Assembly (NCBI GenBank): GCA_963664225.1
Contig: OY760937.1
Coordinates: 5,632,001-5,696,000 of the forward strand
DNA from: Verrucomicrobiia bacterium
Lineage (GTDB): Bacteria > Verrucomicrobiota > Verrucomicrobiia > Limisphaerales > UBA1319
Direction of reading: 5' to 3'
Length of the DNA stretch: 64,000 nt
The position numbers and the translations under genes are program-made. The stretch's first letter is position 1, and each line of letters starts with the position of its first letter. Positions 41,697-54,435 of this stretch are shown piece by piece. The notes under the pieces were generated by a model. That model worked only from the letters and a program-made list of their open reading frames with translations, was not told where the DNA came from and made no database searches.

Positions 41697-43259
41697 ATGA
41701 GAACTGACATTGGAGGGGCGCAAAAACGGGCGGGGAACCCCTGTTTTGCCTGGGGGCGAATCGGGTTGCGGGATGTATTATGGCTCTGGCTTTTGGGGAT
41801 GGCATTTGGTGTCCACGCGCAATTCGATGAGATTCAATCACGCATCTCCGAGTTCGTGCTGGATAATGGCATGAAATTCATCGTTCTGGAGCGGCATCAG
41901 GCTCCGGTGGTTTCCTTTTACACTTACGCGGATGTTGGCTCGGCTCAAGAGGTGGAAGGCACCACCGGATTGGCGCATCTTTTCGAGCACATGGCATTCA
42001 AGGGAAGCCAGAAAATTGGGACCAGGGATTATGAAAAGGAGCAATCAGCCCTTGCGAAGGAAGATGCGGCCTATGCGGCTTTTTCGGCAGCGCGCCGACA
42101 GGGGGCGTCAACGGAGGTTTTGAAGCCGCTTGAGGAGGCGTTTCAAGCGGCACAGGCCGAGGCGGGAAAATGGGTGGTCAAGGGTGAATTTGACGAGGCG
42201 GTGGAACGCGCGGGGGGCAGGGGACTTAACGCCAACACGGCTTCAGACCGAACCGTCTTTTTTTTCAGTCTGCCTTCCAATGAGTCGGAACTCTGGTTTT
42301 ATTTGGATTCGGAACGGTTTTATGAGCCGGTGCTGCGCGAATTTTACAAGGAACGCGATGTCGTGATGGAGGAACGGCGCCTGAGTGTGGAAGGCAATCC
42401 CATTGGAAAACTGATCGAGGAGTTTTTGTCTGTTGCCTACAAGGCGCACTCCTATAAATCACCGACCATCGGATACATGAGCGATTTGCAGAATCTCACG
42501 CGCGGTGATGCCCGGGATTTCTTCAGCAAATACTATGTTCCCAGCAATTTGACGGCGGTGGTTGTGGGAGATGTGGATGCCCCCCGGATACGGGCGCTTG
42601 CGGAAACCTATTTTGGGAGAATTCCCCGAAAACCAGCTCCAGAGCCTTTGCGGACCGTTGAGCCGCCACAAGCGGGTGAACGCTCTTTCAAACTGCGTCT
42701 GCAATCCCAGCGGGTCAGCCTGGTTGGCTATCACAAGCCGGGCATTCAGCATCCGGATAACGCGGTTTATGATGCCTTGGGCAGCTTGTTGAGCGAGGGC
42801 CGCTCCTCCCGTTTATATCGAAGCCTGGTGCGCGATCAGAAAATCGCGGTCGAAGCCGGAGGATTCTCGGGATTCCCGGGCCAAAAATATCCAGGAGTGT
42901 TTTTGTTTTATGCCTTTACTGCTCCCGGGCACGAAAATGCGGAGGTGGAAAAGGCTTTGGATGGTGAGATCGAGAGGCTATGCAAGGAATTGGTGTCTGC
43001 GGAGGAGTTGGACGGGGTTAAGAGACGCGCACGCGCCAATCTGTTGCGTCAATTGGATGACAACGCCGGACTGGCCATGCAACTGGCGGATTGGCAGGGG
43101 TTGACGGGGGATTGGCATAATCTGTTTCGGCAACTGGACAAGATCAATGCGGTGACGCCTGCCGACATACAACGTGTGGCCAAGGCAACGTTCAAGGAAA
43201 TCAATCGCACGGTCGGCACGATAGAACCAGCGCAGCCCAATGCGGAATCGGCACAATAA
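41697..43259 (+). CDS. M16 zinc peptidase, catalytic subunit (exported)
   Basis: GLAHLFEHMAFKG (HXXEH), NANT, ERDVVMEERR; signal-like N-terminus. Confidence 0.92.
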   Translation: MRTDIGGAQKRAGNPCFAWGRIGLRDVLWLWLLGMAFGVHAQFDEIQSRISEFVLDNGMKFIVLERHQAPVVSFYTYADVGSAQEVEGTTGLAHLFEHMAFKGSQKIGTRDYEKEQSALAKEDAAYAAFSAARRQGASTEVLKPLEEAFQAAQAEAGKWVVKGEFDEAVERAGGRGLNANTASDRTVFFFSLPSNESELWFYLDSERFYEPVLREFYKERDVVMEERRLSVEGNPIGKLIEEFLSVAYKAHSYKSPTIGYMSDLQNLTRGDARDFFSKYYVPSNLTAVVVGDVDAPRIRALAETYFGRIPRKPAPEPLRTVEPPQAGERSFKLRLQSQRVSLVGYHKPGIQHPDNAVYDALGSLLSEGRSSRLYRSLVRDQKIAVEAGGFSGFPGQKYPGVFLFYAFTAPGHENAEVEKALDGEIERLCKELVSAEELDGVKRRARANLLRQLDDNAGLAMQLADWQGLTGDWHNLFRQLDKINAVTPADIQRVAKATFKEINRTVGTIEPAQPNAESAQ

Positions 43260-43276
43260 TGGGAAGGAGAGATTTG

Positions 43277-44770
43277 ATGAAAACATTACATTCTTTTATG
43301 GGGCAGACCATCGGGCGCTACGCTTTGGCGTTTCTTTGTGTTGGGATTGTCGTTGCAGCGATACCTGTCAGAGCCGAAAAACCCGTCGATTCGTACAAGG
43401 ATCTGCAATATCCGCCTCTGAATAATCTGCAGATACCCCAACCCAACCGCATCGAATTGGGCAATGGAATCGTACTGTTTTTGATCGAGGATCACGAGTT
43501 GCCGATGGTCAATGTTTCGGTGTTGATCCGGGGTGGGACACGGAGCGAACCGGTGGCCAAAGCAGGCGTGGCTGATTTGTGCGGAACGGTGATGCGCACC
43601 GGGGGGACGGCGAGCCGCCCGGGTGACAAGCTGGACGAGGAATTGGACCGATTGGGAGCGGCGGTCGAGACGGGCATGAGCGACGACCTGGGCTCGGCAA
43701 GTGTATCCGTTCTGAAGGAAGACACAGACAAGGGACTGGCGATCCTGTCCGATCTATTGCAGAATCCCGCCTTTCCTGAGGAGAAAATTGAACTCGCGAA
43801 GATTGGTATCCGGGATTCAATTGCGCGCCGCAATGACAATCCTGGCGGGATCGTTTTTCGCGAGTTTGAACGTATTCTTTTTGGAACAAACTCGGCTTAC
43901 GGTCACCAGCCGGAATACGCCACCGTGGATTCCATCAAGCGCGACGATTTGATCGCATTTTACAAACAGTTTTACCAACCGGAGAATTTGATCGTGGGAG
44001 TCTGGGGTGATTTCAAAGCCTCTGAAATGCAGGCAAAAATCGAAGGAACACTAGGAGCGTGGAAAAAAGGAGGGAATCCAAAGCCTGCAATTCCAGCCGT
44101 GGACACCGCCGTGGAACGGTCCGGGACTTATTACATCGGCAAAGAGGACATCAATCAGACCTGGATAGTGGTGGGGCATTTGGGCGGCCAAAGGAACGAC
44201 CCCGATTATTATGCGCTAAACTTAATGAATCGCATCCTGGGCGGCAGCATGGCCTCGCGCATGTTCAGCAACATCCGTTCGGACATGGGACTGGCCTATA
44301 ATATCCGTTCCATTTGGAACGCCGAATGGGATCATCCGGGCGAGTTTATCGCCAGCGGCAGCACAAAAGCAGGAACGACCGTCAAGATGTTGAACGCCAT
44401 GAAGCATGAGATTCAGCGATTGACTGAGGAAGAGGTGACCGATGAGGAATTGTCACGCGCCAAGGACGGTGTCCTTAAGGGATTCGCTTTTGAGTTTGAT
44501 TCCACAGGCAAGGTGGTGCAGCGAATGATGAATTACGAGTTCTACGGGTATCCACACGATTACCTTCAACGCTTCCGTGAGAATATCGAAAAAGTCAGCC
44601 GGGCCGATATTCTGAACGCGGCTAAAAAACATCTTCATCCCGATCAATCGATCCAATTGCTTTTGGGCCGGGAAAAGGATTTTGACCAGCCGCTGTCAAC
44701 TCTGGGGAAAGTCACTCCGGTGGATATCACAATTCCCGGAGCGCCAGAGGCTGATTCTACGAATAAATAG
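43277..44770 (+). CDS. M16 peptidase-like partner subunit lacking HXXEH
   Basis: L.NG...EDHELP, ILGG..SR.F..IR...GLAY; AGGAG RBS before MKTLH; adjacent to catalytic subunit. Confidence 0.88.
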   Translation: MKTLHSFMGQTIGRYALAFLCVGIVVAAIPVRAEKPVDSYKDLQYPPLNNLQIPQPNRIELGNGIVLFLIEDHELPMVNVSVLIRGGTRSEPVAKAGVADLCGTVMRTGGTASRPGDKLDEELDRLGAAVETGMSDDLGSASVSVLKEDTDKGLAILSDLLQNPAFPEEKIELAKIGIRDSIARRNDNPGGIVFREFERILFGTNSAYGHQPEYATVDSIKRDDLIAFYKQFYQPENLIVGVWGDFKASEMQAKIEGTLGAWKKGGNPKPAIPAVDTAVERSGTYYIGKEDINQTWIVVGHLGGQRNDPDYYALNLMNRILGGSMASRMFSNIRSDMGLAYNIRSIWNAEWDHPGEFIASGSTKAGTTVKMLNAMKHEIQRLTEEEVTDEELSRAKDGVLKGFAFEFDSTGKVVQRMMNYEFYGYPHDYLQRFRENIEKVSRADILNAAKKHLHPDQSIQLLLGREKDFDQPLSTLGKVTPVDITIPGAPEADSTNK

Positions 44771-44932
44771 GTGGAGTTGGCATCGCGAACGGAATGCTTG
44801 ACCTCTTGAATTCAATCCTATTCCAAAGGTTTCCAATTTGACGGCGTTGGAACTCTGAGGTTTATTCGTGAATGGTCTAAATCTCAGGTATGCCGGATTG
44901 GTTGCACGGCCTGACAGTGGACTGTGCTGCCG

Positions 44933-45715
44933 ATGAACGAAAACAAGCCGATGATATTGTTGTGCCGCTGCTCCCGCGGCGATGTCTCCCATGCGCAAGC
45001 TCAGGAACGCATGGCTCGCGCCCTTGAAGCGGCGCAACTGACTTTCCTGACTGTCGATGATTTGTGCGGACTGGCCGCACTCAAGGATCCTGTTTTGCGC
45101 GAGGTATTGGACAATCATTCCACGACCGTTCTGGCGTGCCATCCCCGCGCCGTTAATTGGTTGATTCGTTCGAGTGGTTCCCAAGCCAATCGAGCCACTC
45201 TTTTAAATTCGCGCGATGAGGCGGCCGAGCCAATTGTCGCACGCCTTCTTGAAACGGGTCTTCCTTCCGGCGATTTCACCTCAATTGTATTCAAGAAAGC
45301 CGGCGAATGGGTTCCATGGTTTCCGGTGATCGACTATGATCGCTGCAAGAATTGCAAACAATGTTTGAGCTTTTGCCTCTTCGGAGTATATGGGTTGGAT
45401 GCGGAGGGTCGTGTATCGGTGGCTAATCCCCAAGGGTGCAAGACCAATTGTCCGGCCTGCGCACGGATTTGCCCTGACGTTGCCATTATTTTTCCGAAAT
45501 ACAACCAGGCGCCAATCAACGGTGCTCCCATCGTGGACGAAAGCTCCGAGCGAGCGAAGGTCAAAGTCAATGTTCAGGAAATTCTGGGCTCTGACATTTA
45601 TGGGGCGTTATCGGAACGCAAGAAGAAAGCCCGGTCTCTGCTGGTCAAGAAATCAGCCAGTCCTGGCGGCCTTGATTTGAACGCACATCAGCCTGCATCG
45701 CCACTCAAACCCTGA
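44933..45715 (+). CDS. 2x[4Fe-4S] ferredoxin-domain protein with Cys-containing N-terminal domain
   Basis: CKNCKQCLSFC and CKTNCPACARICP; N-terminal CRC, DLC, ACHPR. Confidence 0.85.
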   Translation: MNENKPMILLCRCSRGDVSHAQAQERMARALEAAQLTFLTVDDLCGLAALKDPVLREVLDNHSTTVLACHPRAVNWLIRSSGSQANRATLLNSRDEAAEPIVARLLETGLPSGDFTSIVFKKAGEWVPWFPVIDYDRCKNCKQCLSFCLFGVYGLDAEGRVSVANPQGCKTNCPACARICPDVAIIFPKYNQAPINGAPIVDESSERAKVKVNVQEILGSDIYGALSERKKKARSLLVKKSASPGGLDLNAHQPASPLKP

Positions 45716-45723
45716 TATTGTCC

Positions 45724-46917
45724 ATGATGCTCCAATTGGCCCGCCGGTTTCTTACCGAACCTGACAAACGTTTGCTTGCGAAACTGGCATGGAATTGCGG
45801 ATGGAAAGGCATGCTGGCCATCAACGCTTTCAATCGGCGTCGCAAACGGGGCGTTTATTTTCCGGCCTTTGTTTTTTTATCGGTGACCAACAAGTGCAAT
45901 CTACACTGTCAAGGTTGCTGGGTTTCAGTGAATAGTCCGCCCCGGGTGTTGGATGGTGGGACTCTTGATCGCGTGGTTACAGAATGCAAGGCGCAGGGGG
46001 CTTCGTTTTTCGGAATTCTTGGGGGTGAGCCATTACTGCACCCGGAAATCTTCGACGTGATCTCCAGACATGGAGACTGCTATTTTCAACTCTTCACCAA
46101 TGGAACTTTATTGACGGATGAGGTGGCTGCGAAATTGAGGCGGTTGGGCAATGTCACGCCTTTGATCAGTGTCGAGGGCAGCGAGCAGGTCAGCGACGAA
46201 CGACGGGGTGGCAATGAAGTCTATCGCAGGTCAATGAGCGGGATTGATGCCTGTCGGCGCAACCGGCTCTTTTTCGGCGTGGCCACGAGCGTTTGCCGGT
46301 CGAACTTTTCAGATTTGGTTTCGCGCAAATTTGTCGATGAATTGATTGCGCGTGGAGCGCATTATTTGTGGTATTACATCTACAGGCCCGTGGGGGCGGA
46401 TCCTTCCCCGGAATTGGCGCTTTCAGAAAATGAAATTGTGGAATTGCGTCAGTTCATGGTTAACATCCGGGCAGAGGCGCCCATTGTGGTGGTGGATGCC
46501 TATTGGGATCACGAAGGGCGCGCCTTGTGTCCGGCAGCCACGGGCATCAGTCATCACATCGGTCCGGGCGGGGATGTCGAGCCGTGCCCGGTGGTCCAGT
46601 TCGCGCGGGAAAATATTGGTGACGGCTCGCAAATGGTGAAACAAATCACCGAGTCCAAGTTCCTTGAGCGGTTCAGGGAATTTTCCAGCAGTGCAACGCG
46701 TGGCTGCGTTCTCATGGATCATCCAGAGGCGTTGCGGCAGTTCTTGATCGAGCAAAACGCAAAGGACACGACAGGTCGAGGTACCGGACTCAAGGAGTTG
46801 GCAGGAATGGCAACGCTACCCTGCCATCACGTTCCGGGTCGTGAAATTCCTGAAAAGCAGTGGATGTATCGGTTTGCCAAGAAACACTGGTTCTTTGGTT
46901 TCGGGGCCTATGGATGA
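45724..46917 (+). CDS. Radical SAM protein with SPASM/twitch-like C-terminus
   Basis: CNLHCQGC, GGEP, FTNG, ISVEG; CPA..HIGPGGDVEPCP. Confidence 0.92.
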   Translation: MMLQLARRFLTEPDKRLLAKLAWNCGWKGMLAINAFNRRRKRGVYFPAFVFLSVTNKCNLHCQGCWVSVNSPPRVLDGGTLDRVVTECKAQGASFFGILGGEPLLHPEIFDVISRHGDCYFQLFTNGTLLTDEVAAKLRRLGNVTPLISVEGSEQVSDERRGGNEVYRRSMSGIDACRRNRLFFGVATSVCRSNFSDLVSRKFVDELIARGAHYLWYYIYRPVGADPSPELALSENEIVELRQFMVNIRAEAPIVVVDAYWDHEGRALCPAATGISHHIGPGGDVEPCPVVQFARENIGDGSQMVKQITESKFLERFREFSSSATRGCVLMDHPEALRQFLIEQNAKDTTGRGTGLKELAGMATLPCHHVPGREIPEKQWMYRFAKKHWFFGFGAYG

Positions 46918-46963
46918 GGCATTGAATACAGCACATGATTTCCTATAGATTTCAAAGATCGTG

Positions 46964-48625
46964 ATGACGCCAAAAACATCTCCGCGCAAGCGTCTGGCAC
47001 AGGATGCTTCGGCATCGCATCACCCGCGAGAGGAGGGAAACTACGGCGTGCCCGCGCAAAAATCGGTGCGGGAGGCGGTGCGCGCATCCGTCCGTCAATA
47101 CGTGCGTCAATTGGAATTGGTGCCACCCTTATCAATGGAGGAATTGCGGGAGCATACAGACGCCCTATTGCAGAACAACGGCCTCGACCATGTCTATCGG
47201 GATTTTATCACTGTATTGGTGGGAAATGAAGTGTGGTGGAATACGATGGCGGGCATTCCATTTGAACGGCGCGTTTTAATGCTGCCGCAATGCCTGAGGA
47301 TCAAATCGGATTGTCCGGCGGTCATGGACGAATTGGGATTGTTATGCGAGCAATGCGGGCAATGCCCCACCGGGGACATTCAAGAGGAGGCCGAAGACTT
47401 GGGCTATGTGGTTCTGGTGGCGGAGGGAACCACCGTGGTGACCAAATTGCTTGAGCAAGGCAAAGTGGACGCGGTCATCGGCATCAGTTGCCTGTCGGTT
47501 CTCGAGCGCGCCTTTCCTCATATGGCCACACATGCGATCCCCGGAATTGCCATTCCCCTGGTTCGCGATGGTTGTGAAAACACCCAGGCGGATTTGGACT
47601 GGGTGCGGGAGGCGATCCATTTGAAGTCCGATGCCCGGTGGCTTGGACGCATCGACATCGAGCGACTGCGGATCGAGGTCGAGACCTGGTTCATGCCGCA
47701 CGCATTGCGGCCGTTGATTTGCCGCGAGGGAACAGAGACCGAAGATATTGCGCTTGATTGGCTCGCGGTTTCGGGCAAGAGGTGGCGCCCGGTTCTGGCT
47801 GCTTGTGTTTATAAGGCGCTGTCGGTCGAGGAGGAAGGTCAACCGGCGGAAAATATTCACAAGCTGGCAGTTGCCATGGAATGTTTTCATAAGGCCTCGC
47901 TGGTGCATGACGACATCGAAGATGAAGACGAGTTGCGGTATGGGAAGGAAACACTTCACAAGCGCCACGGAATACCCATAGCCCTGAATGTCGGCGACTT
48001 GTTGCTGGGCGAGGGTTACCGGTTGGTTGCGGAGTGTGGGGCCTCGCCTGCCCAGACGGCAACCATGCTGGGCGTTGTAGCGGAGGCTCATCGCAATTTG
48101 TGCCTCGGACAGGGTGAAGAGCTGTGTTGGATGCGCAATCCAACGGCCCTGTCATCGCGCAAGGTTCTCGATTTATTTCGACGGAAAACAGCGCCTGCGT
48201 TTGAAGTGGCGCTTCGGCTTGGGGCCATTCGCGCCGATGCCGGAAACGAGGTTGGGAGCGTGTTAAAAGCCTACAGTGAATCTCTGGGCATCGCTTTCCA
48301 AATACGCGATGACCTGGAGGACTTTTCCGGCAAGGACAATGACACCGAAGCGATGCGCCCTTCGATTCTTCACGCACTTGCTTACGAGAGCGCCACAGTT
48401 GCCATGCGGGATGTGTTGGAAGCCGCATGGAAGGATGGCAGGAACGCTGGAACTCAAAACGCCACGGTGCGGGAGTTGATGATGAACGAGCGGGCTGAGG
48501 AAAAGGCGCGTCAGTTGCTTGAGCATTACAAGAATGAGGCAATTCGCTCGCTGGGGCCATTGCGAAACGCTCAACTAAAAAGCCTTTTGCGTCGCGTGGT
48601 TGGAAAAATCGTTGGGTCGATTTAA
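46964..48625 (+). CDS. DUF116-like Cys-rich domain fused to trans-polyprenyl diphosphate synthase
   Basis: RRVLMLPQCLR..CPA..CEQCGQC..AEGT..GISC..GC; then GKRWRP, HDDIED..LRYG (FARM), GQ, KT, FQIRDDLED (SARM). Confidence 0.88.
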   Translation: MTPKTSPRKRLAQDASASHHPREEGNYGVPAQKSVREAVRASVRQYVRQLELVPPLSMEELREHTDALLQNNGLDHVYRDFITVLVGNEVWWNTMAGIPFERRVLMLPQCLRIKSDCPAVMDELGLLCEQCGQCPTGDIQEEAEDLGYVVLVAEGTTVVTKLLEQGKVDAVIGISCLSVLERAFPHMATHAIPGIAIPLVRDGCENTQADLDWVREAIHLKSDARWLGRIDIERLRIEVETWFMPHALRPLICREGTETEDIALDWLAVSGKRWRPVLAACVYKALSVEEEGQPAENIHKLAVAMECFHKASLVHDDIEDEDELRYGKETLHKRHGIPIALNVGDLLLGEGYRLVAECGASPAQTATMLGVVAEAHRNLCLGQGEELCWMRNPTALSSRKVLDLFRRKTAPAFEVALRLGAIRADAGNEVGSVLKAYSESLGIAFQIRDDLEDFSGKDNDTEAMRPSILHALAYESATVAMRDVLEAAWKDGRNAGTQNATVRELMMNERAEEKARQLLEHYKNEAIRSLGPLRNAQLKSLLRRVVGKIVGSI

Positions 48626-48630
48626 GAGTC

Positions 48631-49566
48631 ATGGCTGACGCGGCATCCATAGTTCCAACAAGCAGCGAAGGAATGTTGGCGGTCATCCGCCAGGCTGCAA
48701 GCCAGTTGGAGCCGGATATTCACGACAGTCTCGAGGCCTTTTTGATGAGCCAGTGGACTGCGGCGGGCGGTGCTCGAAATCGCGCCGGCACTGCGGATCT
48801 CTATTACACGGTCTTTCTATTGGAATGTTGCCTCGGGATGGACCTGGCTATTCCGCAGCGACAAGTTCTCGAGTTTTTGAATGGATTTGGAACTGGTCAA
48901 TCCCTTGATTTTGTTCATCGGGCCTGTCTGGCGCGTTGCCGCGGAGTTCTTCCTGAAACCCAATCAGCATCGAACATAAACACTGTAATACTGCGAGGCC
49001 TTGAAGAATTCCGGCTTCCGGATGGCGGCTATAACCAGAATGCGTTGGATCCCGAACGCTGTGAGGATGGGCCGCTTTCGGGCGCGCTGTATGACGGTTT
49101 TCTCGCATTAATGGCTTGGGACGCATTAGGGGGTGTGTTGCCGCGTTCAGAGGAGTTTCTTCAATGGTTGAAAACGATCCAACCCTCTGGAGGTGGTTAC
49201 GGCAACGATGCGGGATTTCAAGCGCCTACCACGCCCGTCACGGCAGGCGCCGTGATGCTTATGGCGCGTCATGGTTTTCCAATACCCAATACAGTGGGCG
49301 ATTGGTTGATGGATCAGCATCAGAGCTTGGGAGGCTTTTTGGCAGCACCCATGGCACCCATGCCGGACTTGCTTTCCACAGCCACAGCATTGCACGCCCT
49401 GCATGTGTTAAAGCGTCCAATGGGAGAAGCAGGTTCAAAGTGTCTGGAGTTTGTCGAGTCCCTATGGGCGGAGGCCGGTGGTTTTCGAGGGTATCTGGAA
49501 GATGACCAGGCGGACGTGGAATATACCTATTACGGTTTGCTCGCTTTGGGTCATTTGGCACGGTAA
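48631..49566 (+). CDS. Prenyltransferase/squalene-oxidase-repeat protein (single alpha-barrel)
   Basis: Repeats ADLYYT, DGGY, GGGYG, GGF..PDLLSTATAL, GGF..ADVEYTYYGLLALG. Confidence 0.8.
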   Translation: MADAASIVPTSSEGMLAVIRQAASQLEPDIHDSLEAFLMSQWTAAGGARNRAGTADLYYTVFLLECCLGMDLAIPQRQVLEFLNGFGTGQSLDFVHRACLARCRGVLPETQSASNINTVILRGLEEFRLPDGGYNQNALDPERCEDGPLSGALYDGFLALMAWDALGGVLPRSEEFLQWLKTIQPSGGGYGNDAGFQAPTTPVTAGAVMLMARHGFPIPNTVGDWLMDQHQSLGGFLAAPMAPMPDLLSTATALHALHVLKRPMGEAGSKCLEFVESLWAEAGGFRGYLEDDQADVEYTYYGLLALGHLAR

Positions 49567-49571
49567 TCGAC

Positions 49572-51494
49572 ATGAATTCAGGTTTAAGGATTCGTATTGA
49601 CAAGAGTTTGAAGCTGGTTCAGGGACAATTGCTTGAACAATTGCAGCCTGGGCGGGGCTGGGAGGGATATCTCTCCAGCAGTGCTTTATCGACGGCGGTA
49701 GCAGTTTTGGCACTCGCACATACCAACGCCGACGCTCATCAACGCTGGATTGCCGATGGTTTGGGTTGGCTGGCCGCCAATGCAAATGAAGATGGAGCTT
49801 GGGGTGATGCGCCGGGAAGTCCAAGCAACATGAGCACCACCTTGCTCTGCTGGTCCGCCATGGTTTGGTCACGTGATGGAAAGCATTTGTCGGCGGTGGA
49901 ACGGGCAGAGGAGTGGCTGCGTGTGAACTTGGGCGCGTTGGATGGAGACCACATTGCGGATGCAATTCTCCATTTTTACGGAAATGACCGCACTTTTTCG
50001 GCGCCGATTCTTACGGTGTGCGCTTTATCCGGAAGGCTTGGAAAGGGTTTGGAAGCATGGAGGCTGGTTCCGCAACTTCCCTTTGAGCTGGCCATTTTCC
50101 CATATCAGCTTTTCAGATGGCTCCATCTGTCCGTGGTCAGCTATGCCATTCCGGCATTGATTGCAATTGGCCTGGTCCGTCACCATCATGGCGGTTCCGG
50201 GTTCTCACCGCGTCGGATGTTTCGGGAACGCATCAAGAACAGAACGCTTGAGATTCTGGCGTCCATGCAGCCCCAATCGGGCGGTTATCTGGAGGCCACG
50301 CCACTGACGGGCTTTGTTGCACTGGGCTTGGCCAACTCAGGCTATTCCGGGCATCGAGTCACCAAGAAATGCGTGGAATTTTTGATCGCCTCAGCAAGGG
50401 AGGACGGCAGTTGGCCCATCGATACGAACCTGGCAACATGGGTGACGACTCAAGCTGTTAATCAAATTTCTGAGAAGGAAAATCCTTTATCTCGCGCGCA
50501 ATGTGATGGATTGCGCCAATGGCTTCTTGACCAGCAATACACCGTAGAGCATCCGTTCACGCATGCTCCTCCCGGTGGCTGGGCATGGACTGATTTGTCC
50601 GGCGGAGTGCCCGACGCGGACGACACCGCAGGGGCACTTCTGGCGTTGTTCCGTCTTGGCCCGGTGGATCAGCGCACACAAAAGGCTGCCAAGGCAGGTT
50701 TGCAGTGGCTTCTCGATTTACAAAATGGCGATGGGGGCATTCCCACCTTTTGCCGTGGATGGGGGAAGCTGCCGTTTGACCGTAGTTGCCCGGATATCAC
50801 GGCGCATGCGATGCGGGCATTCTGGGATTGGCGCAATTCGGTGGACGGTCCCCTGAAGAAACGCCTGGAAACAGCATTGGAGAAGGGACTTTCCTATCTC
50901 AAGAAATCCCAAACCGCGTCTGGTTCCTGGCTGCCGTTGTGGTTTGGAAACCAGGAGTCCAAGGGACATTCCAATCCGACTTATGGCACCTCTGCTGTGG
51001 TGATGTCGTTATGCGCCGTTGCGGCAGATCACCATGAGAAAGTAATGAATGCGCTGGAAAAGGGGTGTCAATGGCTGGTCTCCGCGCAAAATGCCGACGG
51101 GGGGTGGGGTGGGGATATTGGAGTCCGCTCAACAATCGAGGAGACTGCGCTGGCGGTTAGCGCGCTGGCCGAAGCAGGCATGGATTATGAAAGGTCCTAT
51201 CTCGCAGGAATTGAATGGCTCCTCAATCGCAGCCGGGAATGCACACAATGGCACCCGGCGCCAATCGGGCTTTATTTCGCATCGCTATGGTATTCCGAGC
51301 GGTTGTATCCGCAGGTATTCACAATGGGAGCGCTGACGCGAGCGGCCAAATGGATGAGCGAGGAAACGGGTCGTCTGCAGAAGGAAAGAATTAGCGGGTT
51401 TGATGGAGTGGCGCCAGTTCCGTGCAACGAAGGGCCCGAAGGAAATTCGGGTGGAAGCGCGGACAGACAAAAAGGCTCTCACCGCCGAGCCTGA
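49572..51494 (+). CDS. Squalene-hopene cyclase-like class II terpene cyclase
   Basis: PDADDTAGAL (DXDD) and QW-type motifs EDGAWG, EDGSWP, QNGDGG, QTASGSW, QNADGGWG. Confidence 0.88.
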   Translation: MNSGLRIRIDKSLKLVQGQLLEQLQPGRGWEGYLSSSALSTAVAVLALAHTNADAHQRWIADGLGWLAANANEDGAWGDAPGSPSNMSTTLLCWSAMVWSRDGKHLSAVERAEEWLRVNLGALDGDHIADAILHFYGNDRTFSAPILTVCALSGRLGKGLEAWRLVPQLPFELAIFPYQLFRWLHLSVVSYAIPALIAIGLVRHHHGGSGFSPRRMFRERIKNRTLEILASMQPQSGGYLEATPLTGFVALGLANSGYSGHRVTKKCVEFLIASAREDGSWPIDTNLATWVTTQAVNQISEKENPLSRAQCDGLRQWLLDQQYTVEHPFTHAPPGGWAWTDLSGGVPDADDTAGALLALFRLGPVDQRTQKAAKAGLQWLLDLQNGDGGIPTFCRGWGKLPFDRSCPDITAHAMRAFWDWRNSVDGPLKKRLETALEKGLSYLKKSQTASGSWLPLWFGNQESKGHSNPTYGTSAVVMSLCAVAADHHEKVMNALEKGCQWLVSAQNADGGWGGDIGVRSTIEETALAVSALAEAGMDYERSYLAGIEWLLNRSRECTQWHPAPIGLYFASLWYSERLYPQVFTMGALTRAAKWMSEETGRLQKERISGFDGVAPVPCNEGPEGNSGGSADRQKGSHRRA

Positions 51495-51699: not shown

Positions 51700-52449
51700 A
51701 TGTTATCAGAAAAGCCATGGCAACCCGAGGCCGTGTGGAGGATGGTGATGGCTAATTTTGCCACGCTGTTTCTGGGAATGCTGGCCGCCAGCATTCTTAC
51801 GCGCCTGCTTGGTGGCTGGAACCGGAGTGATTTGGAGATGGTCCATTTTTCTTTAGTGGCCGCAAGTTTTCAAGGGGCGACGTTTGTTTTGGCAGCATTG
51901 TTGTGCCGTTCGCAGAAGGTGACATGGAATGAAGCTTTTGGAATTTCAAACCGGCCACTGCGCGCGCTGAGCATTGCCAGTGTTGTGGCGGTTGGCACTT
52001 TGATTGGGGCGATGATTTTAGGCGCCGTCGCCTCGGCGGTCATGCTGCAACTGGGGATGAAACCAGAAGCCCAACAAGCTGTGCAGATGTTGCAGTCGAC
52101 GGAATCGATCTGGCGGCGGGCATTTTATGGCCTGGTGGCCATTCTGATCGCGCCGGCTGCGGAGGAAATTCTCTTTCGGGGTCTGGTGTATCCCTCGATC
52201 AAACAGATGGGATTCCCAAGGCTGGCGTTATGGGGCACTTCTCTGATTTTTGCGGCAACACATGTCAATGCCATGGCACTTCTTCCTCTGACATTTGTGG
52301 CGCTCATGTTTACACTGTTGTATGAAAAAACGAACAATCTGCTCGCGCCGATTCTGGCCCATTCGATGTTCAACGCGGTCAATTTTGCAATTCTGATTTT
52401 TCAGAAGGATCTTACCAGTATCTGGGATTCGCTCTATGAACGAATTTGA
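51700..52449 (+). CDS. CPBP/Abi family intramembrane glutamic protease
   Basis: EEILFRG, FAATH, HSMFN; multiple TM helices. Confidence 0.9.
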   Translation: MLSEKPWQPEAVWRMVMANFATLFLGMLAASILTRLLGGWNRSDLEMVHFSLVAASFQGATFVLAALLCRSQKVTWNEAFGISNRPLRALSIASVVAVGTLIGAMILGAVASAVMLQLGMKPEAQQAVQMLQSTESIWRRAFYGLVAILIAPAAEEILFRGLVYPSIKQMGFPRLALWGTSLIFAATHVNAMALLPLTFVALMFTLLYEKTNNLLAPILAHSMFNAVNFAILIFQKDLTSIWDSLYERI

Positions 52450-53350
52450 TCTGATCAGGCTTCTGACGGCTGGCTTGCCCTCCAACGATACCACCATTTT
52501 GGGGGCTGGGGATGATTGTGCGGTTCTTGATCTGGGATTATCGGACCGCTGGCTGCTTTTTAAAACGGACGCCGTGGTTGAAGGAATTCATTATACTTCG
52601 GATGCCAAGCCGGAAGAAGTGGGCCACAAGGCATTGGCCAGGTGCCTGAGCGATGTCGCCGCCATGGCGGGCAAACCGGTGGCTGCGCTGGTTACGCTGG
52701 GCCTTCCGCAGGAGTATGATCCAAAATGGGCGCTGGCGGTTTACGCCGGCATGAGCGAATTGGCGCGACGCTATCGCGTGGCCATTGTGGGCGGCGAAAC
52801 CACAACGGTCCCTGAGCGCACATTGCTGTCTGTGGCGCTTTTGGGAACGGTGGACAAGAATAAATGCCTAAAGAGGTCGGGCGCCCTGGCGGGAGACGCC
52901 ATCTTTGTAACCGGCGAACTGGGCGGTTCCATTCAAGGAAAGCACCTTGACTTTGAGCCGCGCATGGAACAGGCACAGTGGCTGGCAACTCACTTTTCGA
53001 TCCACGCGATGATCGATGTCAGCGATGGTTTGGCGGGGGATTTGCGCCATATCACAAATTCCAGCGGTGTGGGCGCCGAACTCCTTGCGAGTGCGATTCC
53101 CGTGAGCGATGCGGCTCGCAAGGGGGGCAAGCCCCCAATGCAGGCGGCTCTTGAGGATGGCGAGGATTTTGAATTGTTGTTTACCGTTCCAGCGCGTGAG
53201 GCGGTTGCTTTGCTGGACGCCTGGAAATTGGAGTTCCCCGGATTGAAGCTTTCATGCATCGGGAAAATCACAAAGAATCCCGGCTTCATTCTGCATGAAG
53301 GGAACCGGACAAGGGACATTCTGGAGCATGGTTACACTCATTTCGCATAG
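52436..53350 (+). CDS. thiL: Thiamine-monophosphate kinase
   Basis: NEFDLI, GDDCA, LSDVAAM, VGGET, IDVSDGL, GEDFELLFT. Confidence 0.93.
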   Translation: MNEFDLIRLLTAGLPSNDTTILGAGDDCAVLDLGLSDRWLLFKTDAVVEGIHYTSDAKPEEVGHKALARCLSDVAAMAGKPVAALVTLGLPQEYDPKWALAVYAGMSELARRYRVAIVGGETTTVPERTLLSVALLGTVDKNKCLKRSGALAGDAIFVTGELGGSIQGKHLDFEPRMEQAQWLATHFSIHAMIDVSDGLAGDLRHITNSSGVGAELLASAIPVSDAARKGGKPPMQAALEDGEDFELLFTVPAREAVALLDAWKLEFPGLKLSCIGKITKNPGFILHEGNRTRDILEHGYTHFA

Positions 53351-53771
53351 TCCGGAGGAGACCGGGCAATTGGGGGAAAGTTGGGGACGAGTCGCCGCCG
53401 CAGGCTGGCTCATTGGTTTGACCGGAGACCTTGGCGCCGGAAAGACCCAATTTGTAAAAGGGTTCGCGCGGGGACTTGACGTGACCGAACGGGTGCATTC
53501 GCCAACATTCGCACTCGCCATTGAGTATCACGGCGGTCGGCTGCCATTGTTTCATCTGGACCTGTATCGTTTGGAAAACGCACAGGAAGTCTTTAGCGCG
53601 GGATTGGAGGAATATTTTCATCAACGCAATGGGGTGACCATCGTGGAATGGGCGGAACGCGCTCCAGTCCACGGCGAAAGTGTCCACACCGGCATGCGTT
53701 ACCGGCGGGTCTTGATCGAGAGCATTGGAGAAAATGACAGGAAAATCAGCTATGAAGATTTTGGCGATTGA
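53328..53771 (+). CDS. tsaE: tRNA t6A biosynthesis ATPase
   Basis: GDLGAGKT, SPTF, HLDLYRL, VEWAE. Confidence 0.93.
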   Translation: MVTLISHSPEETGQLGESWGRVAAAGWLIGLTGDLGAGKTQFVKGFARGLDVTERVHSPTFALAIEYHGGRLPLFHLDLYRLENAQEVFSAGLEEYFHQRNGVTIVEWAERAPVHGESVHTGMRYRRVLIESIGENDRKISYEDFGD

Positions 53772-54435
53772 ATTTTCAAGCGTTCAACGAAGCGTCGCCC
53801 TTTTGGAAGTGTTGCCGACGAGTCAAGTCAGGGCAGGTGATCTGAATGTGGCGGCTTGCATCACGGAAACTGGTTTGGGCAAAACCAGGGCGATGCCGAT
53901 GATTGAAAACGCCTTAAATCAGGCGGCCTGGGAAAGGCAGGAGATCGATACATTGGTTGTGGGCCTTGGTCCTGGATCCTATACGGGCATTCGCGCCGGT
54001 ATCTCCATTGCCCAAGGCTGGCAATTGGGGCGCTGCGTCAACATCCAGGGTGTTAGCAGCATGGAATGCCTGGCGGCGCGTGCCCATGCCGCCGGATGGC
54101 GTGAGCAGACGCATTTCGTTCTGGACGCCCAGAGAGGTGAATTTTACATGGCCGCCTATGATTTTGACGCACAGACGGCAAAATGTTGCGAGCACCTGGA
54201 ATTAGTTTCACGAGAAAAGGTGCAGGCGGTTCTCGATAAAGGCGGACGTGCGGCTGGGCCTGAAATCTCGAGATGGTTTCCTGGCGGATTTGAATTGTAT
54301 CCCGATGCGGTCACTCTCGGATTGATGGCAGCCCGGGAGCAAAAGTATATTCCCGGGGAACAACTGGAACCGATCTATCTACGCGCAACCACGTTCGTCA
54401 AGGCACCCACTCCCCGGCATATTTCCACCGATTAG
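53752..54435 (+). CDS. tsaB: tRNA t6A biosynthesis protein
   Basis: MKILAIE, GPGSYTGIR, DAQRGE.Y, EPIYLR. Confidence 0.92.
   Translation: MKILAIEFSSVQRSVALLEVLPTSQVRAGDLNVAACITETGLGKTRAMPMIENALNQAAWERQEIDTLVVGLGPGSYTGIRAGISIAQGWQLGRCVNIQGVSSMECLAARAHAAGWREQTHFVLDAQRGEFYMAAYDFDAQTAKCCEHLELVSREKVQAVLDKGGRAAGPEISRWFPGGFELYPDAVTLGLMAAREQKYIPGEQLEPIYLRATTFVKAPTPRHISTD

What the first reader, a model, noticed from the sequence alone, without database searches (positions are those of the whole stretch)
44933..51494. Five-gene Fe-S-rich terpenoid cluster: ferredoxin, radical SAM, DUF116-polyprenyl synthase, prenyltransferase-repeat barrel, SHC-like cyclase
Seen: five co-oriented genes with gaps under 50 bp; intact FARM/SARM, CxxxCxxC and DADD motifs; no hpnCDE, squalene synthase or other hpn gene in the window. 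Known: canonical hopanoid synthesis needs squalene from HpnCDE or Sqs, and DXDD marks protonation-initiated class II cyclases. Inference: a self-contained, oxygen-independent route that makes its own polyprenyl precursor, couples or modifies it by radical chemistry and cyclises it to a non-hopanoid polycyclic lipid. Best candidate here for an undescribed pathway.
Basis: partly seen in the sequence, partly recalled or inferred. Interest (0 to 1): 0.85.

Follow-up and report, generated by a model that had tools for sequence, protein, structure and literature searches.

The report
Orphan SHC-like cyclic-terpenoid gene cassette
Five adjacent genes pair a prenyl-chain synthase and a hopene-cyclase-like enzyme with iron-sulfur and radical-SAM proteins; the set is kept together across many bacterial phyla and probably makes a still unidentified ring-bearing isoprenoid lipid.

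Summary
Window 44924-51494 (+) carries five co-oriented genes with gaps of 2-43 nt: a ferredoxin-like protein, a radical SAM enzyme, a DUF116::polyprenyl synthase fusion, a single-toroid prenyltransferase-fold protein and a divergent SHC-like cyclase with DADDTA.

It is not the hopanoid pathway. The cyclase scores 94 bits against the SHC cut-off of 431. The same genome has two full SHC types, HpnH and two SQS_PSY genes elsewhere.

The five genes form a functional unit:
- They keep the same order in 29 of 80 loci from at least six phyla.
- All five are present in 23 of 41 Limisphaerales genomes and none in 11, often unlinked.
- In a phylum sample, all 12 of 151 genomes with the cyclase also have the fusion.

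The cyclase clade, with a polyprenyl synthase nearby, is already flagged in print as "SHC-like, function unknown" (PMC7306690, PMC12414744). This scan has met the cassette at least 20 times on other DNA. I found no printed description of the radical-SAM, Fe-S or toroid partners, or of any product.

Best reading: a squalene-independent route from a dedicated, probably long, polyprenyl chain to a polycyclic lipid. The chemistry of each step is inferred.

The parts
44924..45715 (+). Two-domain Fe-S protein ('Fdx'). The N-terminal domain has four conserved Cys (C14, C16, C48, C72) and no known family. The C-terminal domain is a 2x[4Fe-4S] ferredoxin (CKNCKQCLSFC nt 45344-45376; CKTNCPACARIC nt 45437-45472). 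First ATG at 44933.
   Evidence: Pfam Fer4_10 at residues 134-184. Eight Cys kept in >=90% of 37 homologues. N-domain Cys kept in >=85% of 34. No Pfam match for the N-domain. The two domains are separate genes in many loci.
45718..46917 (+). Radical SAM enzyme of the SPASM/twitch structural class. CNLHCQGC at nt 45895-45918. Five further conserved Cys (C121, C193, C271, C290, C330). Conserved aromatic C-terminal tail.
   Evidence: PF04055 64.6 bits. No NCBIfam cut-off reached; HpnH 41 bits vs 225. Conservation in 26 homologues. Model pLDDT 91.1. Nearest structures are SkfB, SuiB, BlsE, anSME, PqqE, MoaA.
46961..48625 (+). Fusion of a DUF116 Cys-rich domain (residues ~77-219; seven conserved Cys including CEQCGQC nt 47345-47365) with a trans-polyprenyl diphosphate synthase (residues ~268-492; DDIED nt 47909-47923, DDLED nt 48308-48322).
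   Evidence: PF01976 112.1 bits and PF00348 148.4 bits. Conserved residues in 42 homologues, including ECFHKASLxHDDIED with Ala at -5 and Ser at -4. It is the only DUF116 in the genome. There are two other polyprenyl synthases elsewhere.
48631..49566 (+). Single (alpha/alpha)6 toroid protein of the prenyltransferase/terpene-cyclase fold ('PTrep'). It has no DxDD and no conserved Cys.
   Evidence: PF00432 35.1 bits; no NCBIfam match. Model pLDDT 95.1, pTM 0.92. Foldseek neighbours are monodomain cyclases 8pak/8paj and RabGGTase beta, TMq 0.64-0.66. Conservation in 32-39 homologues.
49572..51494 (+). 'SHC-like' two-toroid class II terpenoid cyclase. DADD at nt 50613-50624, DITAH at 50793-50807, one hydrophobic segment at residues 183-204 (nt 50118-50183).
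   Evidence: PF13243 118.5 bits and PF13249 51.2 bits. TIGR01507 94.1 bits vs cut-off 431.1. Profile alignment to A. acidocaldarius SHC, 134 bits. 20-sequence alignment with invariant P347, D348, D350, D351, T352, H412. Hydrophobicity scan. Tree.

Best explanation
The five genes are one copy of a widespread cassette that makes a cyclic isoprenoid lipid without going through squalene.

Proposed order of events:
1. The synthase half of the DUF116::polyprenyl synthase fusion elongates an allylic primer with IPP. The product is a dedicated all-trans polyprenyl diphosphate, probably longer than C20.
2. The Fe-S module acts on that chain before cyclisation. The module is the fused DUF116 domain, the two-domain ferredoxin-like protein and the radical SAM enzyme. 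It carries out a reductive and/or radical transformation, for example removal or change of the diphosphate head, or a C-H/C=C radical modification.
3. The single-toroid protein binds the hydrophobic intermediate and works with the cyclase.
4. The membrane-dipping SHC-like cyclase protonates a terminal double bond with its DADD acid and folds the chain into a polycyclic product.

Shown here: the gene set, its conservation, the intact catalytic motifs, and that it is distinct from the genome's hopanoid pathway.

Inferred: substrate length, the nature and order of the radical/redox step, the role of the toroid protein, and the product.
For: Unit by gene order:
- All five genes, in the same order, occur in 29 of 80 loci from Verrucomicrobiota, Lentisphaerota, Kiritimatiellia, Planctomycetota, Acidobacteriota, Bacteroidota (Marinifilum) and Hydrogenedentes.
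- The same holds in 5 of 19 loci from the window's own order.

Unit by presence and absence:
- Of 41 Limisphaerales genomes, 23 have all five genes, 11 have none and 7 have part.
- In many of the 23 the genes lie on different contigs, so they are kept together without linkage.
- In 151 Verrucomicrobiota genomes at least 90% complete, the cyclase is in 12 and the fusion in 13. All 12 cyclase genomes have the fusion.
- The flanking genes of the window (M16 peptidases, CPBP protease, thiL, tsaE, tsaB) gave no hit in any of the 99 loci.

Not hopanoid:
- TIGR01507 gives 94.1 bits vs cut-off 431.1 for this cyclase, against 688.8 and 635.7 for the genome's own SHCs.
- The genome has its own HpnH elsewhere (363.8 bits). 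The cassette's rSAM scores 41.7.
- The tree splits the family from the genome's own SHCs with 100/100 support.

Active cyclase. The profile alignment to solved SHC keeps DxDD and these equivalents (SHC residue numbers recalled, alignment):
- H451 -> H412
- Y495 -> Y471
- W312 -> W290
- F365 -> W339
- W489 -> W457
- F601 -> F569
- F605 -> W573
- Y612 -> Y579

Dedicated, probably long chain:
- It is a third polyprenyl synthase in the genome.
- Ala(-5)/Ser(-4) before DDIED is invariant in 42 homologues. This resembles the genome's long-chain-type enzyme (HLATLVHDD) and not its short-chain type (HTYSLIHDD with DDxxxxD). The chain-length rule itself is recalled textbook knowledge.

Radical step is obligatory:
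- In 11 of the 13 loci that lack this rSAM, a different rSAM of about 520 aa sits in the same slot.
- 0 of 5 such genomes hold an orthologue-level match to this rSAM.

The rSAM probably acts before or independently of the cyclase: G015 (91% complete) and G032 (75%) keep Fdx, rSAM and fusion but show no cyclase or toroid protein.

Heavy Fe-S demand:
- Conserved Cys sets occur in four domains.
- IscS-like, GcvH-like and CobW-like genes recur beside the cassette in 15, 12 and 16 of 80 loci.

Literature:
- The clade is placed sister to epoxy-polyprenyl cyclases that act on all head-to-tail chains (PMC12414744 section 6).
Against: - No product, substrate or expression evidence exists for any member.
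- Chain length rests on two residues and a recalled rule. The best PDB and NCBIfam matches of the synthase are short-chain or GGPP enzymes and no curated cut-off is reached.
- The genome makes squalene precursors and has SHCs, so squalene is available and this cyclase could still accept it.
- G011 (90% complete) shows cyclase plus toroid protein without the fusion, rSAM or Fdx. The cyclase may therefore work without the dedicated synthase.
- 26 of 80 loci show the cyclase alone, although many are short contigs.
- The rSAM's nearest structures are mostly peptide-modifying SPASM enzymes (SkfB, SuiB, CteB, anSME, PqqE) and none is a lipid enzyme.
- The cassette has no transporter or head-group enzyme that would hint at the final lipid.
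- Related genomes are not independent samples, so the co-occurrence counts overstate the statistical weight.
Confidence: 0.6

Rival explanations
1. Hopanoid-like logic with the steps reversed. The cyclase first cyclises the polyprenyl (or squalene) chain. The radical SAM enzyme then tailors the ring product, for instance by adding the 5'-deoxyadenosyl radical to a double bond as HpnH does. The ferredoxin and DUF116 only supply electrons.
For: - The cyclase-then-rSAM order is the known pattern in hopanoid synthesis (recalled).
- The rSAM has a weak N-terminal match to HpnH (41 bits, E 1e-10).
- A Bipolaricaulota cluster in a preprint figure legend lists DUF116, an SHC, an 'adenosyl-hopene transferase' and a polyprenyl synthetase together (10.1101/2025.11.21.689855, one passage).
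Against: - The HpnH score is far under the cut-off of 225 and lower than the matches to NirJ/AhbD-type enzymes (64 bits).
- The genome has its own full HpnH.
- Two genomes keep Fdx, rSAM and fusion without a detectable cyclase (G015 at 91% complete, G032 at 75%).
- In split genomes the rSAM stays beside the synthase rather than the cyclase (coordinates).
Confidence: 0.15
2. A reductive coupling route to a squalene-like substrate. The synthase makes a C15-C20 diphosphate. The Fe-S/rSAM module joins two units, replacing squalene synthase or HpnCDE. The cyclase then cyclises the symmetric product.
For: - Net two-electron chemistry would explain the unusually rich electron-transfer set.
- The synthase's best solved and curated relatives are short-chain or GGPP enzymes.
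- The cyclase's best solved relative is SHC, and SHC's aromatic residues are kept.
Against: - Ala(-5)/Ser(-4) before the first Asp-rich motif is the long-chain pattern (rule recalled).
- The published tree puts the clade next to cyclases of all head-to-tail chains (PMC12414744 section 6).
- This genome already has SQS_PSY genes.
- No precedent is known to me for such a coupling.
Confidence: 0.12
3. The cassette decorates something other than a free lipid. In this reading a peptide, protein or aromatic head group is prenylated, cross-linked by the SPASM-type rSAM, and its prenyl chain cyclised.
For: - The nearest structures of the rSAM are mostly RiPP or protein maturases (SkfB, SuiB, CteB, anSME, PqqE).
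- The toroid protein resembles protein prenyltransferase beta subunits.
Against: - The 2-43 nt gaps leave no room for a precursor-peptide gene in this window.
- The recurrent neighbours are Fe-S maturation genes rather than a peptide, protease or transporter.
- No UbiA or ABBA prenyltransferase was seen among the recurrent neighbour families.
- The toroid protein has no conserved Cys, so the Asp/Cys/His zinc site of protein prenyltransferases cannot be intact.
- The CPBP protease downstream is not conserved beside the cassette.
Confidence: 0.07
4. The cyclase is an ordinary squalene-hopene cyclase paralogue, and the neighbours are unrelated housekeeping genes that happen to be adjacent.
For: Pfam and JGI annotation call it an SHC. 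Squalene is made in this genome.
Against: - It scores below the SHC and squalene-cyclase cut-offs.
- It is 23-30% identical to the genome's own SHCs.
- A long, fully supported branch separates it from them.
- Five-gene synteny is kept across phyla and co-retention holds without linkage.
Confidence: 0.03

Closest known systems
'SHC-like' clade of class II terpenoid cyclases (Santana-Molina et al. 2020, PMC7306690; McShea et al. 2025, PMC12414744)
   Same: - It is divergent from SHC and OSC but keeps the catalytic residues.
- The taxon range matches: PVC, Bacteroidota, Acidobacteriota.
- A polyprenyl synthase is usually nearby.
- Rows of McShea's supplementary alignment from Kiritimatiellae, Lentisphaerales, Verrucomicrobia, Planctomycetes and Labilibaculum carry the family's LPVVSYALPALIAIG motif.
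   Different: Nothing differs; this is the clade. The passages I read mention only the polyprenyl synthase as a neighbour. 'DUF116' and 'radical SAM' have 0 occurrences in Santana-Molina's supplementary text. The function is stated there to be unknown.
Hopanoid pathway: squalene-hopene cyclase Shc plus radical SAM HpnH
   Same: Both have a two-toroid DxDD cyclase with the His/Tyr helpers and aromatic lining of SHC, and both pair a radical SAM enzyme with a cyclase.
   Different: - The cyclase and the rSAM are both far under the curated cut-offs (94 vs 431; 41 vs 225).
- The precursor enzyme is a polyprenyl synthase rather than HpnCDE or Sqs.
- The genome has the real pathway elsewhere.
Sporulenol route of Bacilli (HepS/HepT, YtpB, SqhC)
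   Same: An SHC relative cyclises a product of a dedicated long-chain polyprenyl synthase instead of squalene (as described in PMC7306690).
   Different: No YtpB-type class I step is present. Fe-S, rSAM and toroid partners are present instead. The clade and taxa differ, since SqhC sits beside SHC in the published trees.
Epoxy-polyprenyl cyclases (Lon15, AtoE, Bra4, PlaT2)
   Same: They are the sister clade in McShea et al. 2025 and use all head-to-tail polyprenyl substrates up to C40.
   Different: Those enzymes use epoxidised substrates made with O2 and are mostly actinomycete. This family keeps DxDD, which is used to protonate a plain alkene, and has no epoxidase next to it.
Protein prenyltransferase beta subunits and monodomain class II cyclases (for the toroid protein)
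   Same: The fold is the same single (alpha/alpha)6 toroid (TMq 0.64-0.66 to RabGGTase beta and to 8pak/8paj).
   Different: There is no conserved Cys for a zinc site and no DxDD or DxD acid motif among the conserved residues. It is more likely a binding or accessory subunit than an enzyme.

Membership tests
Squalene-hopene cyclase (TIGR01507 equivalog) | Score at or above the curated cut-off of 431.1 bits | tested here: not met
   94.1 bits. The genome's own SHCs score 688.8 and 635.7.
Class II (protonation-initiated) terpenoid cyclases | DxDD general acid at the toroid interface, with the His and Tyr that polarise it in SHC | tested here: met
   DADD at residues 348-351. D348, D350, D351, T352 and H412 are invariant in 20 sequences, and Y471 is kept in at least 90%. 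They align to DVDD, H451 and Y495 of solved SHC (SHC numbering recalled).
'SHC-like' clade of the literature | Outside SHC and OSC; found in PVC, FCB and Acidobacteriota; catalytic residues kept; polyprenyl synthase in the vicinity | tested here: met
   - Under the SHC, squalene-cyclase and OSC cut-offs.
- Taxa of 80 loci.
- Synthase adjacent in 47 of 80 loci.
- Motif shared with rows of McShea's supplementary alignment.
- Not tested by placing this sequence in their tree.
trans-Polyprenyl diphosphate synthases (PF00348) | First and second Asp-rich motifs (DDxxD) and a score above the Pfam cut-off | tested here: met
   148.4 bits vs 27. DDIED and DDLED are present and conserved in 42 homologues.
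Any chain-length-specific synthase equivalog (FPP, GGPP, hexa-, hepta-, octaprenyl and others) | Score above the curated NCBIfam cut-off | tested here: not met
   The best match is 126.7 bits against a cut-off of 450. All 16 matches are under their cut-offs.
Radical SAM superfamily (PF04055) | CxxxCxxC cluster motif and a score above the cut-off | tested here: met
   CNLHCQGC; 64.6 bits vs 29.5. C60, C64 and C67 are kept in at least 90% of 26 homologues.
SPASM/twitch radical SAM enzymes | C-terminal auxiliary Fe-S cluster domain | tested here: inconclusive
   The nearest structures are SPASM/twitch enzymes at TMq 0.5-0.6, and five extra conserved Cys are present. No Pfam SPASM match was obtained. 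Metal content cannot be tested here.
Adenosylhopane synthase HpnH (TIGR03470) | Score at or above 225.05 bits | tested here: not met
   41.1-41.7 bits.
DUF116 (PF01976) | Score above the cut-off and the conserved Cys pattern including CxxCxxC | tested here: met
   112.1 bits vs 25. C111, C118, C129, C132, C135, C177 and C205 are kept in at least 90% of 42 homologues. The family's function is unknown; a flavodoxin-like fold and an electron-transfer role were predicted in PMC5898192.
Protein prenyltransferase beta subunit (for the toroid protein) | Zinc site with a Cys ligand (Asp/Cys/His; recalled) | tested here: not met
   No Cys is conserved in 39 or 32 homologues. Only the fold matches.

The most novel reading that the evidence does not exclude
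The cassette cyclises a regular, head-to-tail C30-C40 polyprenyl chain into tri- to polycyclic polyprenoids of the tricyclohexaprenol type, after the chain has been processed by a new Fe-S/radical-SAM reaction. That would make these PVC, Acidobacteriota and Bacteroidota bacteria the long-sought biological source of the extended tricyclic terpanes of sediments and oils. A passage of PMC9247107 calls these 'orphan biomarkers' of unknown source. It would also reveal a new reaction for the DUF116 domain on allylic diphosphates.
Probability: 0.12. Interest if true: 0.9.

Novelty: new variant of a known kind. Interest (0 to 1): 0.62.

Why it matters
Cyclic terpenoids stiffen membranes and survive as molecular fossils. 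A whole clade of hopene-cyclase relatives, present in at least 597 species-level genomes, still has no known product.

This locus and its relatives define a minimal, testable gene set: synthase fusion, rSAM, ferredoxin-like protein, toroid protein and cyclase. The comparisons also show that:
- the partners are co-retained even when unlinked;
- the radical-SAM step is obligatory but can be carried out by two unrelated rSAM families;
- the toroid protein's presence follows that of the cyclase.

Cultured carriers exist, including Chthoniobacter flavus Ellin428, Marinifilum species and Planctomycetaceae SH248. Per McShea et al. [quoted passage not shown]

If the product is a regular polycyclic polyprenoid, it would bear on the origin of orphan biomarkers.

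Tried and rejected
- The search for related loci with the single cyclase protein found no relative in genome contigs. The alignment query then worked.
- Complex prediction of cyclase plus toroid protein returned no verdict (score 0.00, mark 0.32). It says nothing either way.
- The look-up of sequencing runs for RNA listed no RNA holder.
- The N-terminal domain of the ferredoxin-like protein has no Pfam family at E up to 10. The ESM Atlas gave only 'hypothetical protein' clusters under 0.9.
- The sigma-70 and terminator scan gave nothing usable for operon boundaries. It found 2 promoter-like sites against 3.7 expected, both on the minus strand.
- PDB sequence search with the toroid protein gave only E 0.024 or weaker.
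- I considered the CPBP/Rce1-like protease downstream (51700-52449) as a prenyl-related partner. I rejected it because it has no hit beside the cassette in any of the 99 loci.
- I considered that the CobW-like, IscS-like and GcvH-like accessory genes might sit beside the cassette here. They do not. A 50%-identical CobW-like gene lies at C1:3079632-3080753 among unrelated genes.
- Print searches that found no characterisation of the cassette.
- The tree has only the family and the genome's own SHCs. It has no OSC, SqhC or diterpene cyclases, so it cannot place the clade more widely. For that I rely on PMC12414744.

Full report
OBSERVATION

On the + strand of the window, the ORF listing gives five consecutive ORFs:
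- 44924-45715 (263 aa)
- 45718-46917 (399 aa)
- 46961-48625 (554 aa)
- 48631-49566 (311 aa)
- 49572-51494 (640 aa)

They are separated by 2, 43, 5 and 5 nt.

Pfam assigns the following:
- a 4Fe-4S dicluster domain to the first ORF;
- Radical_SAM to the second;
- DUF116 plus polyprenyl_synt to the third;
- the prenyltransferase alpha-alpha toroid to the fourth;
- both squalene-hopene-cyclase domains to the fifth.

The flanking genes are two M16 peptidases upstream and, downstream, a CPBP/Rce1-like protease, thiL, tsaE and tsaB.

NOT THE HOPANOID PATHWAY

The window is G000:C1:5632001-5696000 of a 5.78 Mb single-contig genome. Elsewhere that genome has:
- two SQS_PSY genes;
- three strong SQHop_cyclase_C matches, two of them with identical scores;
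- a full HpnH (363.8 bits).

The two SHC types score 688.8 and 635.7 bits on the SHC equivalog model (cut-off 431.1). The window's cyclase scores 94.1. It is 23-30% identical to the genome's own SHCs.

In a tree of 20 family members, the two own SHCs and one divergent relative, the family is split from the SHCs with 100/100 support by very long branches. This tree has no OSC, SqhC or diterpene cyclases.

The cassette's rSAM scores 41 bits on HpnH against a cut-off of 225. The organism has the canonical route elsewhere, and this is a separate system.

A CO-CONSERVED UNIT

The cyclase has thousands of relatives at about 50% identity. All 8000 scored candidates passed E 0.001. They are named only generically, in Verrucomicrobiota, Lentisphaerae, Kiritimatiellia, Planctomycetota, Armatimonadetes, Sumerlaeia and Bryobacteraceae.

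tblastn with the window's proteins gave these gene sets among the 80 loci:
- all five genes, in the same order: 29
- everything but this rSAM: 13
- cyclase + fusion + toroid protein: 4
- cyclase + toroid protein: 4
- four other partial combinations: 1 each
- cyclase alone: 26, many on short contigs

None of the window's flanking genes was found in any locus.

In 11 of the 13 loci lacking this rSAM, a different rSAM occupies the same slot between the ferredoxin gene and the fusion. It is about 520 aa, with a B12-binding-domain-like N-terminus (TIGR04013, 57.7 bits, under its cut-off). Of 5 such genomes searched whole, none holds an orthologue-level match to the window's rSAM. The best is 34% identity at E 3e-39, in one genome. 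A radical-SAM step therefore looks obligatory, but it is served by two unrelated rSAM families.

Within the window's own order, 41 genomes were searched with each of the five proteins. The order is Limisphaerales, because locus L110 has the contig length of a G040 contig.
- All five genes are found in 23 genomes.
- None is found in 11.
- A partial set is found in 7:
  - G004 and G017 lack only the rSAM.
  - G011 has only cyclase and toroid protein.
  - G015 and G032 have only Fdx, rSAM and fusion.
  - G037 lacks the cyclase, but its contig ends right after the toroid gene.
  - G022 has only a 35%-identical cyclase.

Only 5 of 19 fetched loci in this order keep the five genes together. Elsewhere they sit on different contigs, so they are co-retained without linkage.

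In 151 Verrucomicrobiota genomes at least 90% complete, the cyclase is found in 12 and the fusion in 13 (E at most 1e-80). All 12 cyclase genomes have the fusion, 1 has the fusion only, and 138 have neither. Related genomes are not independent, so these are descriptive counts and not a test.

Two sub-modules show through the partial sets: Fdx-rSAM-fusion and toroid-cyclase. The toroid gene's presence follows the cyclase's. In split genomes, however, it lies beside the fusion in 8 cases, beside the cyclase in 2 and beside the rSAM in 1 (coordinates).

THE PARTS

Cyclase
- In a 20-sequence alignment, P347, D348, D350, D351, T352 and H412 are invariant.
- A profile of this alignment finds A. acidocaldarius SHC as the best solved relative (134 bits), then lanosterol synthase (70.6 bits).
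- In the printed alignment the DVDD acid, the His and Tyr that support it, and most aromatic residues of the C-terminal half of the SHC cavity have identical or aromatic counterparts (SHC numbering recalled).
- One hydrophobic stretch, residues 183-204, is the only such segment in the five proteins. It carries the family motif LxVVSYAxPALIAIG, which fits a membrane-dipping entrance like that of SHC (inference).

Synthase fusion
- Both Asp-rich motifs and the surrounding ECFHKASLxHDDIED are kept in 42 homologues.
- Ala at -5 and Ser at -4 resemble the genome's long-chain-type synthase (HLATLVHDD). They do not resemble its short-chain type (HTYSLIHDD with the DDxxxxD insertion).
- By the textbook rule (recalled), small residues at these positions allow products beyond C20.
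- No curated chain-length model is reached, and the best solved relatives are archaeal GGPP synthases. Length remains an inference.
- The DUF116 half has seven conserved Cys, including CxxCxxC, and is the only DUF116 in the genome.
- Makarova et al. 2015 predicted a flavodoxin-like, metal-binding, electron-transfer domain and noted its fusion to polyprenyl synthetase in Pirellula staleyi (PMC5898192, passages).

Radical SAM enzyme
- The canonical cluster motif and five more conserved Cys are present.
- The protein ends in a conserved aromatic tail.
- The model is confident (pLDDT 91.1).
- Its nearest structures are SPASM/twitch enzymes: SkfB, SuiB, BlsE, CteB, anSME, PqqE and MoaA, at TMq about 0.5-0.6.
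- By sequence, the tetraether synthase GDGT-MAS is only a marginal hit (E 0.0016).

Ferredoxin-like protein
- The C-terminal half is a conserved 2x[4Fe-4S] domain.
- The N-terminal domain has four conserved Cys and no known family.
- The two halves are separate genes in many loci.

Toroid protein
- The model is confident (pLDDT 95.1).
- It is a single (alpha/alpha)6 toroid, closest to monodomain class II cyclases (8pak, 8paj) and to RabGGTase beta.
- No Cys and no DxDD is conserved, so a binding or accessory role is more likely than catalysis.

Recurrent neighbours in other loci are an IscS-like cysteine desulfurase (15 of 80 loci), a GcvH-like protein (12) and a CobW-like GTPase (16). These are absent from this window. 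A 50%-identical CobW-like gene lies unlinked at 3.08 Mb.

HOW IT MOST LIKELY WORKS

Shown: a dedicated polyprenyl synthase and an apparently active, protonation-type, non-SHC cyclase are genetically coupled across phyla to an rSAM and to at least four Cys-rich, probably Fe-S, domains.

Inferred sequence of events:
1. The synthase builds a dedicated, probably long, all-trans polyprenyl diphosphate.
2. The fused DUF116 domain, the ferredoxin-like protein and the rSAM transform that chain by reductive or radical chemistry.
3. The toroid protein handles the hydrophobic intermediate.
4. The cyclase folds it into rings.

I put 0.6 on this general scheme and much less on any single chemical step.

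The order 'rSAM before cyclase' rests on two points. Two genomes keep Fdx, rSAM and fusion without the cyclase, and the rSAM stays beside the synthase when the cassette is split. The opposite, HpnH-like order is the main rival (0.15). A reductive coupling to a squalene-like substrate (0.12) and a non-lipid target (0.07) follow. Ordinary SHC plus chance neighbours is nearly excluded (0.03).

COMPARISON WITH WHAT IS KNOWN

Earlier notes of this scan pointed me to two papers, which I then read myself.

Santana-Molina et al. 2020 define an 'SHC-like' group. They state that the planctomycetal members keep the critical residues. [quoted passage not shown] 'DUF116' and 'radical SAM' do not occur in that supplement.

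McShea et al. 2025 (PMC12414744; abstract, and sections 6 and 7 read whole) place this clade as sister to the epoxy-polyprenyl cyclases. They list PVC, FCB, Spirochaetota and Acidobacteriota as its hosts. They state that its function has not been demonstrated, even for cultured, tractable organisms. Their 14 expressed metagenomic cyclases were all from the SHC or OSC groups. Rows of their supplementary alignment from the same taxa carry the family's LPVVSYALPALIAIG motif, so this window's cyclase belongs to that clade.

A preprint figure legend lists DUF116, an SHC, an 'adenosyl-hopene transferase' and a polyprenyl synthetase in one Bipolaricaulota cluster (10.1101/2025.11.21.689855, one passage).

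Six full-text searches found no characterisation of the cassette or its product. Subscription journals are largely outside that library.

NOVELTY AND VERDICT

The locus is a genuine, intact copy of a widespread cassette. Its core (cyclase clade plus nearby synthase) is already flagged in print as function-unknown. This scan has met it at least 20 times on other DNA.

What is not in the papers I read:
- the obligatory rSAM/Fe-S partnership;
- the toroid partner;
- the two-module structure;
- the displacement of one rSAM family by another.

I rate it a new variant of a known kind, with interest 0.62. It is not surprising as a sighting, but it gives a well-defined, testable route to an open question: what do the SHC-like cyclases make?

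The boldest reading not excluded is that the product is a regular polycyclic polyprenoid of the tricyclohexaprenol type. That would be a source for the tricyclic terpanes, which one passage calls orphan biomarkers (PMC9247107). I give this reading 0.12.

Noticed in passing
window 51700-52449 (+): A CPBP/Rce1-like 'CAAX prenyl endopeptidase' family membrane protease lies 205 nt downstream of the cyclase (PF02517, 69.2 bits). The family name suggests a prenyl link, but it has no hit beside the cassette in any of the 99 other loci.
   Followed up: yes
window 41697-44770 (+): A pair of M16 (insulinase-type) peptidase genes sits directly upstream, overlapping each other by one base. They are not conserved beside the cassette.
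   Followed up: partly
G000:C1:1591811-1592710 (-) and G000:C1:5779612-5780511 (+), outside the window: Two SHC genes give identical scores (377.9 bits) and identical tblastn alignments on opposite strands. This suggests a large inverted duplicate region in the chromosome or an assembly repeat.
   Followed up: no
L043, L058, L061, L075, L077, L080, L088, L092, L097, L104, L108 (between the ferredoxin gene and the fusion): In Phycisphaerae, Pirellulales and Sedimentisphaerales loci, a different rSAM replaces the window-type rSAM in the same slot. It is about 520 aa with a B12-binding-domain-like N-terminus. 0 of 5 such genomes have an orthologue-level match to the window-type rSAM.
   Followed up: partly
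e.g. L046:30-2405, L064:2815-4550, L096, L099, L115: An IscS-like cysteine desulfurase, a GcvH-like protein that retains the lipoyl-type Lys, and a CobW-like GTPase recur just upstream of the cassette in 15, 12 and 16 of 80 loci. This suggests dedicated metal or sulfur delivery.
   Followed up: partly
L038, L042, L053, L060, L084, L092 and others: BamB-like PQQ_2 beta-propeller proteins recur near the cassette in 15 of 80 loci. They may be merely a common family in these phyla.
   Followed up: no
G006:C223, G007:C2, G009:C34, G017:C30, G024:C15 (cyclase matches): The cyclase matches in five relatives contain one or two in-frame stops (TGA or TAA) according to the genome search. These could be pseudogenes, sequencing errors or read-through of a gene boundary; I did not examine them.
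   Followed up: no
window 52436-54435 (+): A thiL-tsaE-tsaB run with overlapping ends follows the protease gene. These are ordinary housekeeping genes.
   Followed up: no
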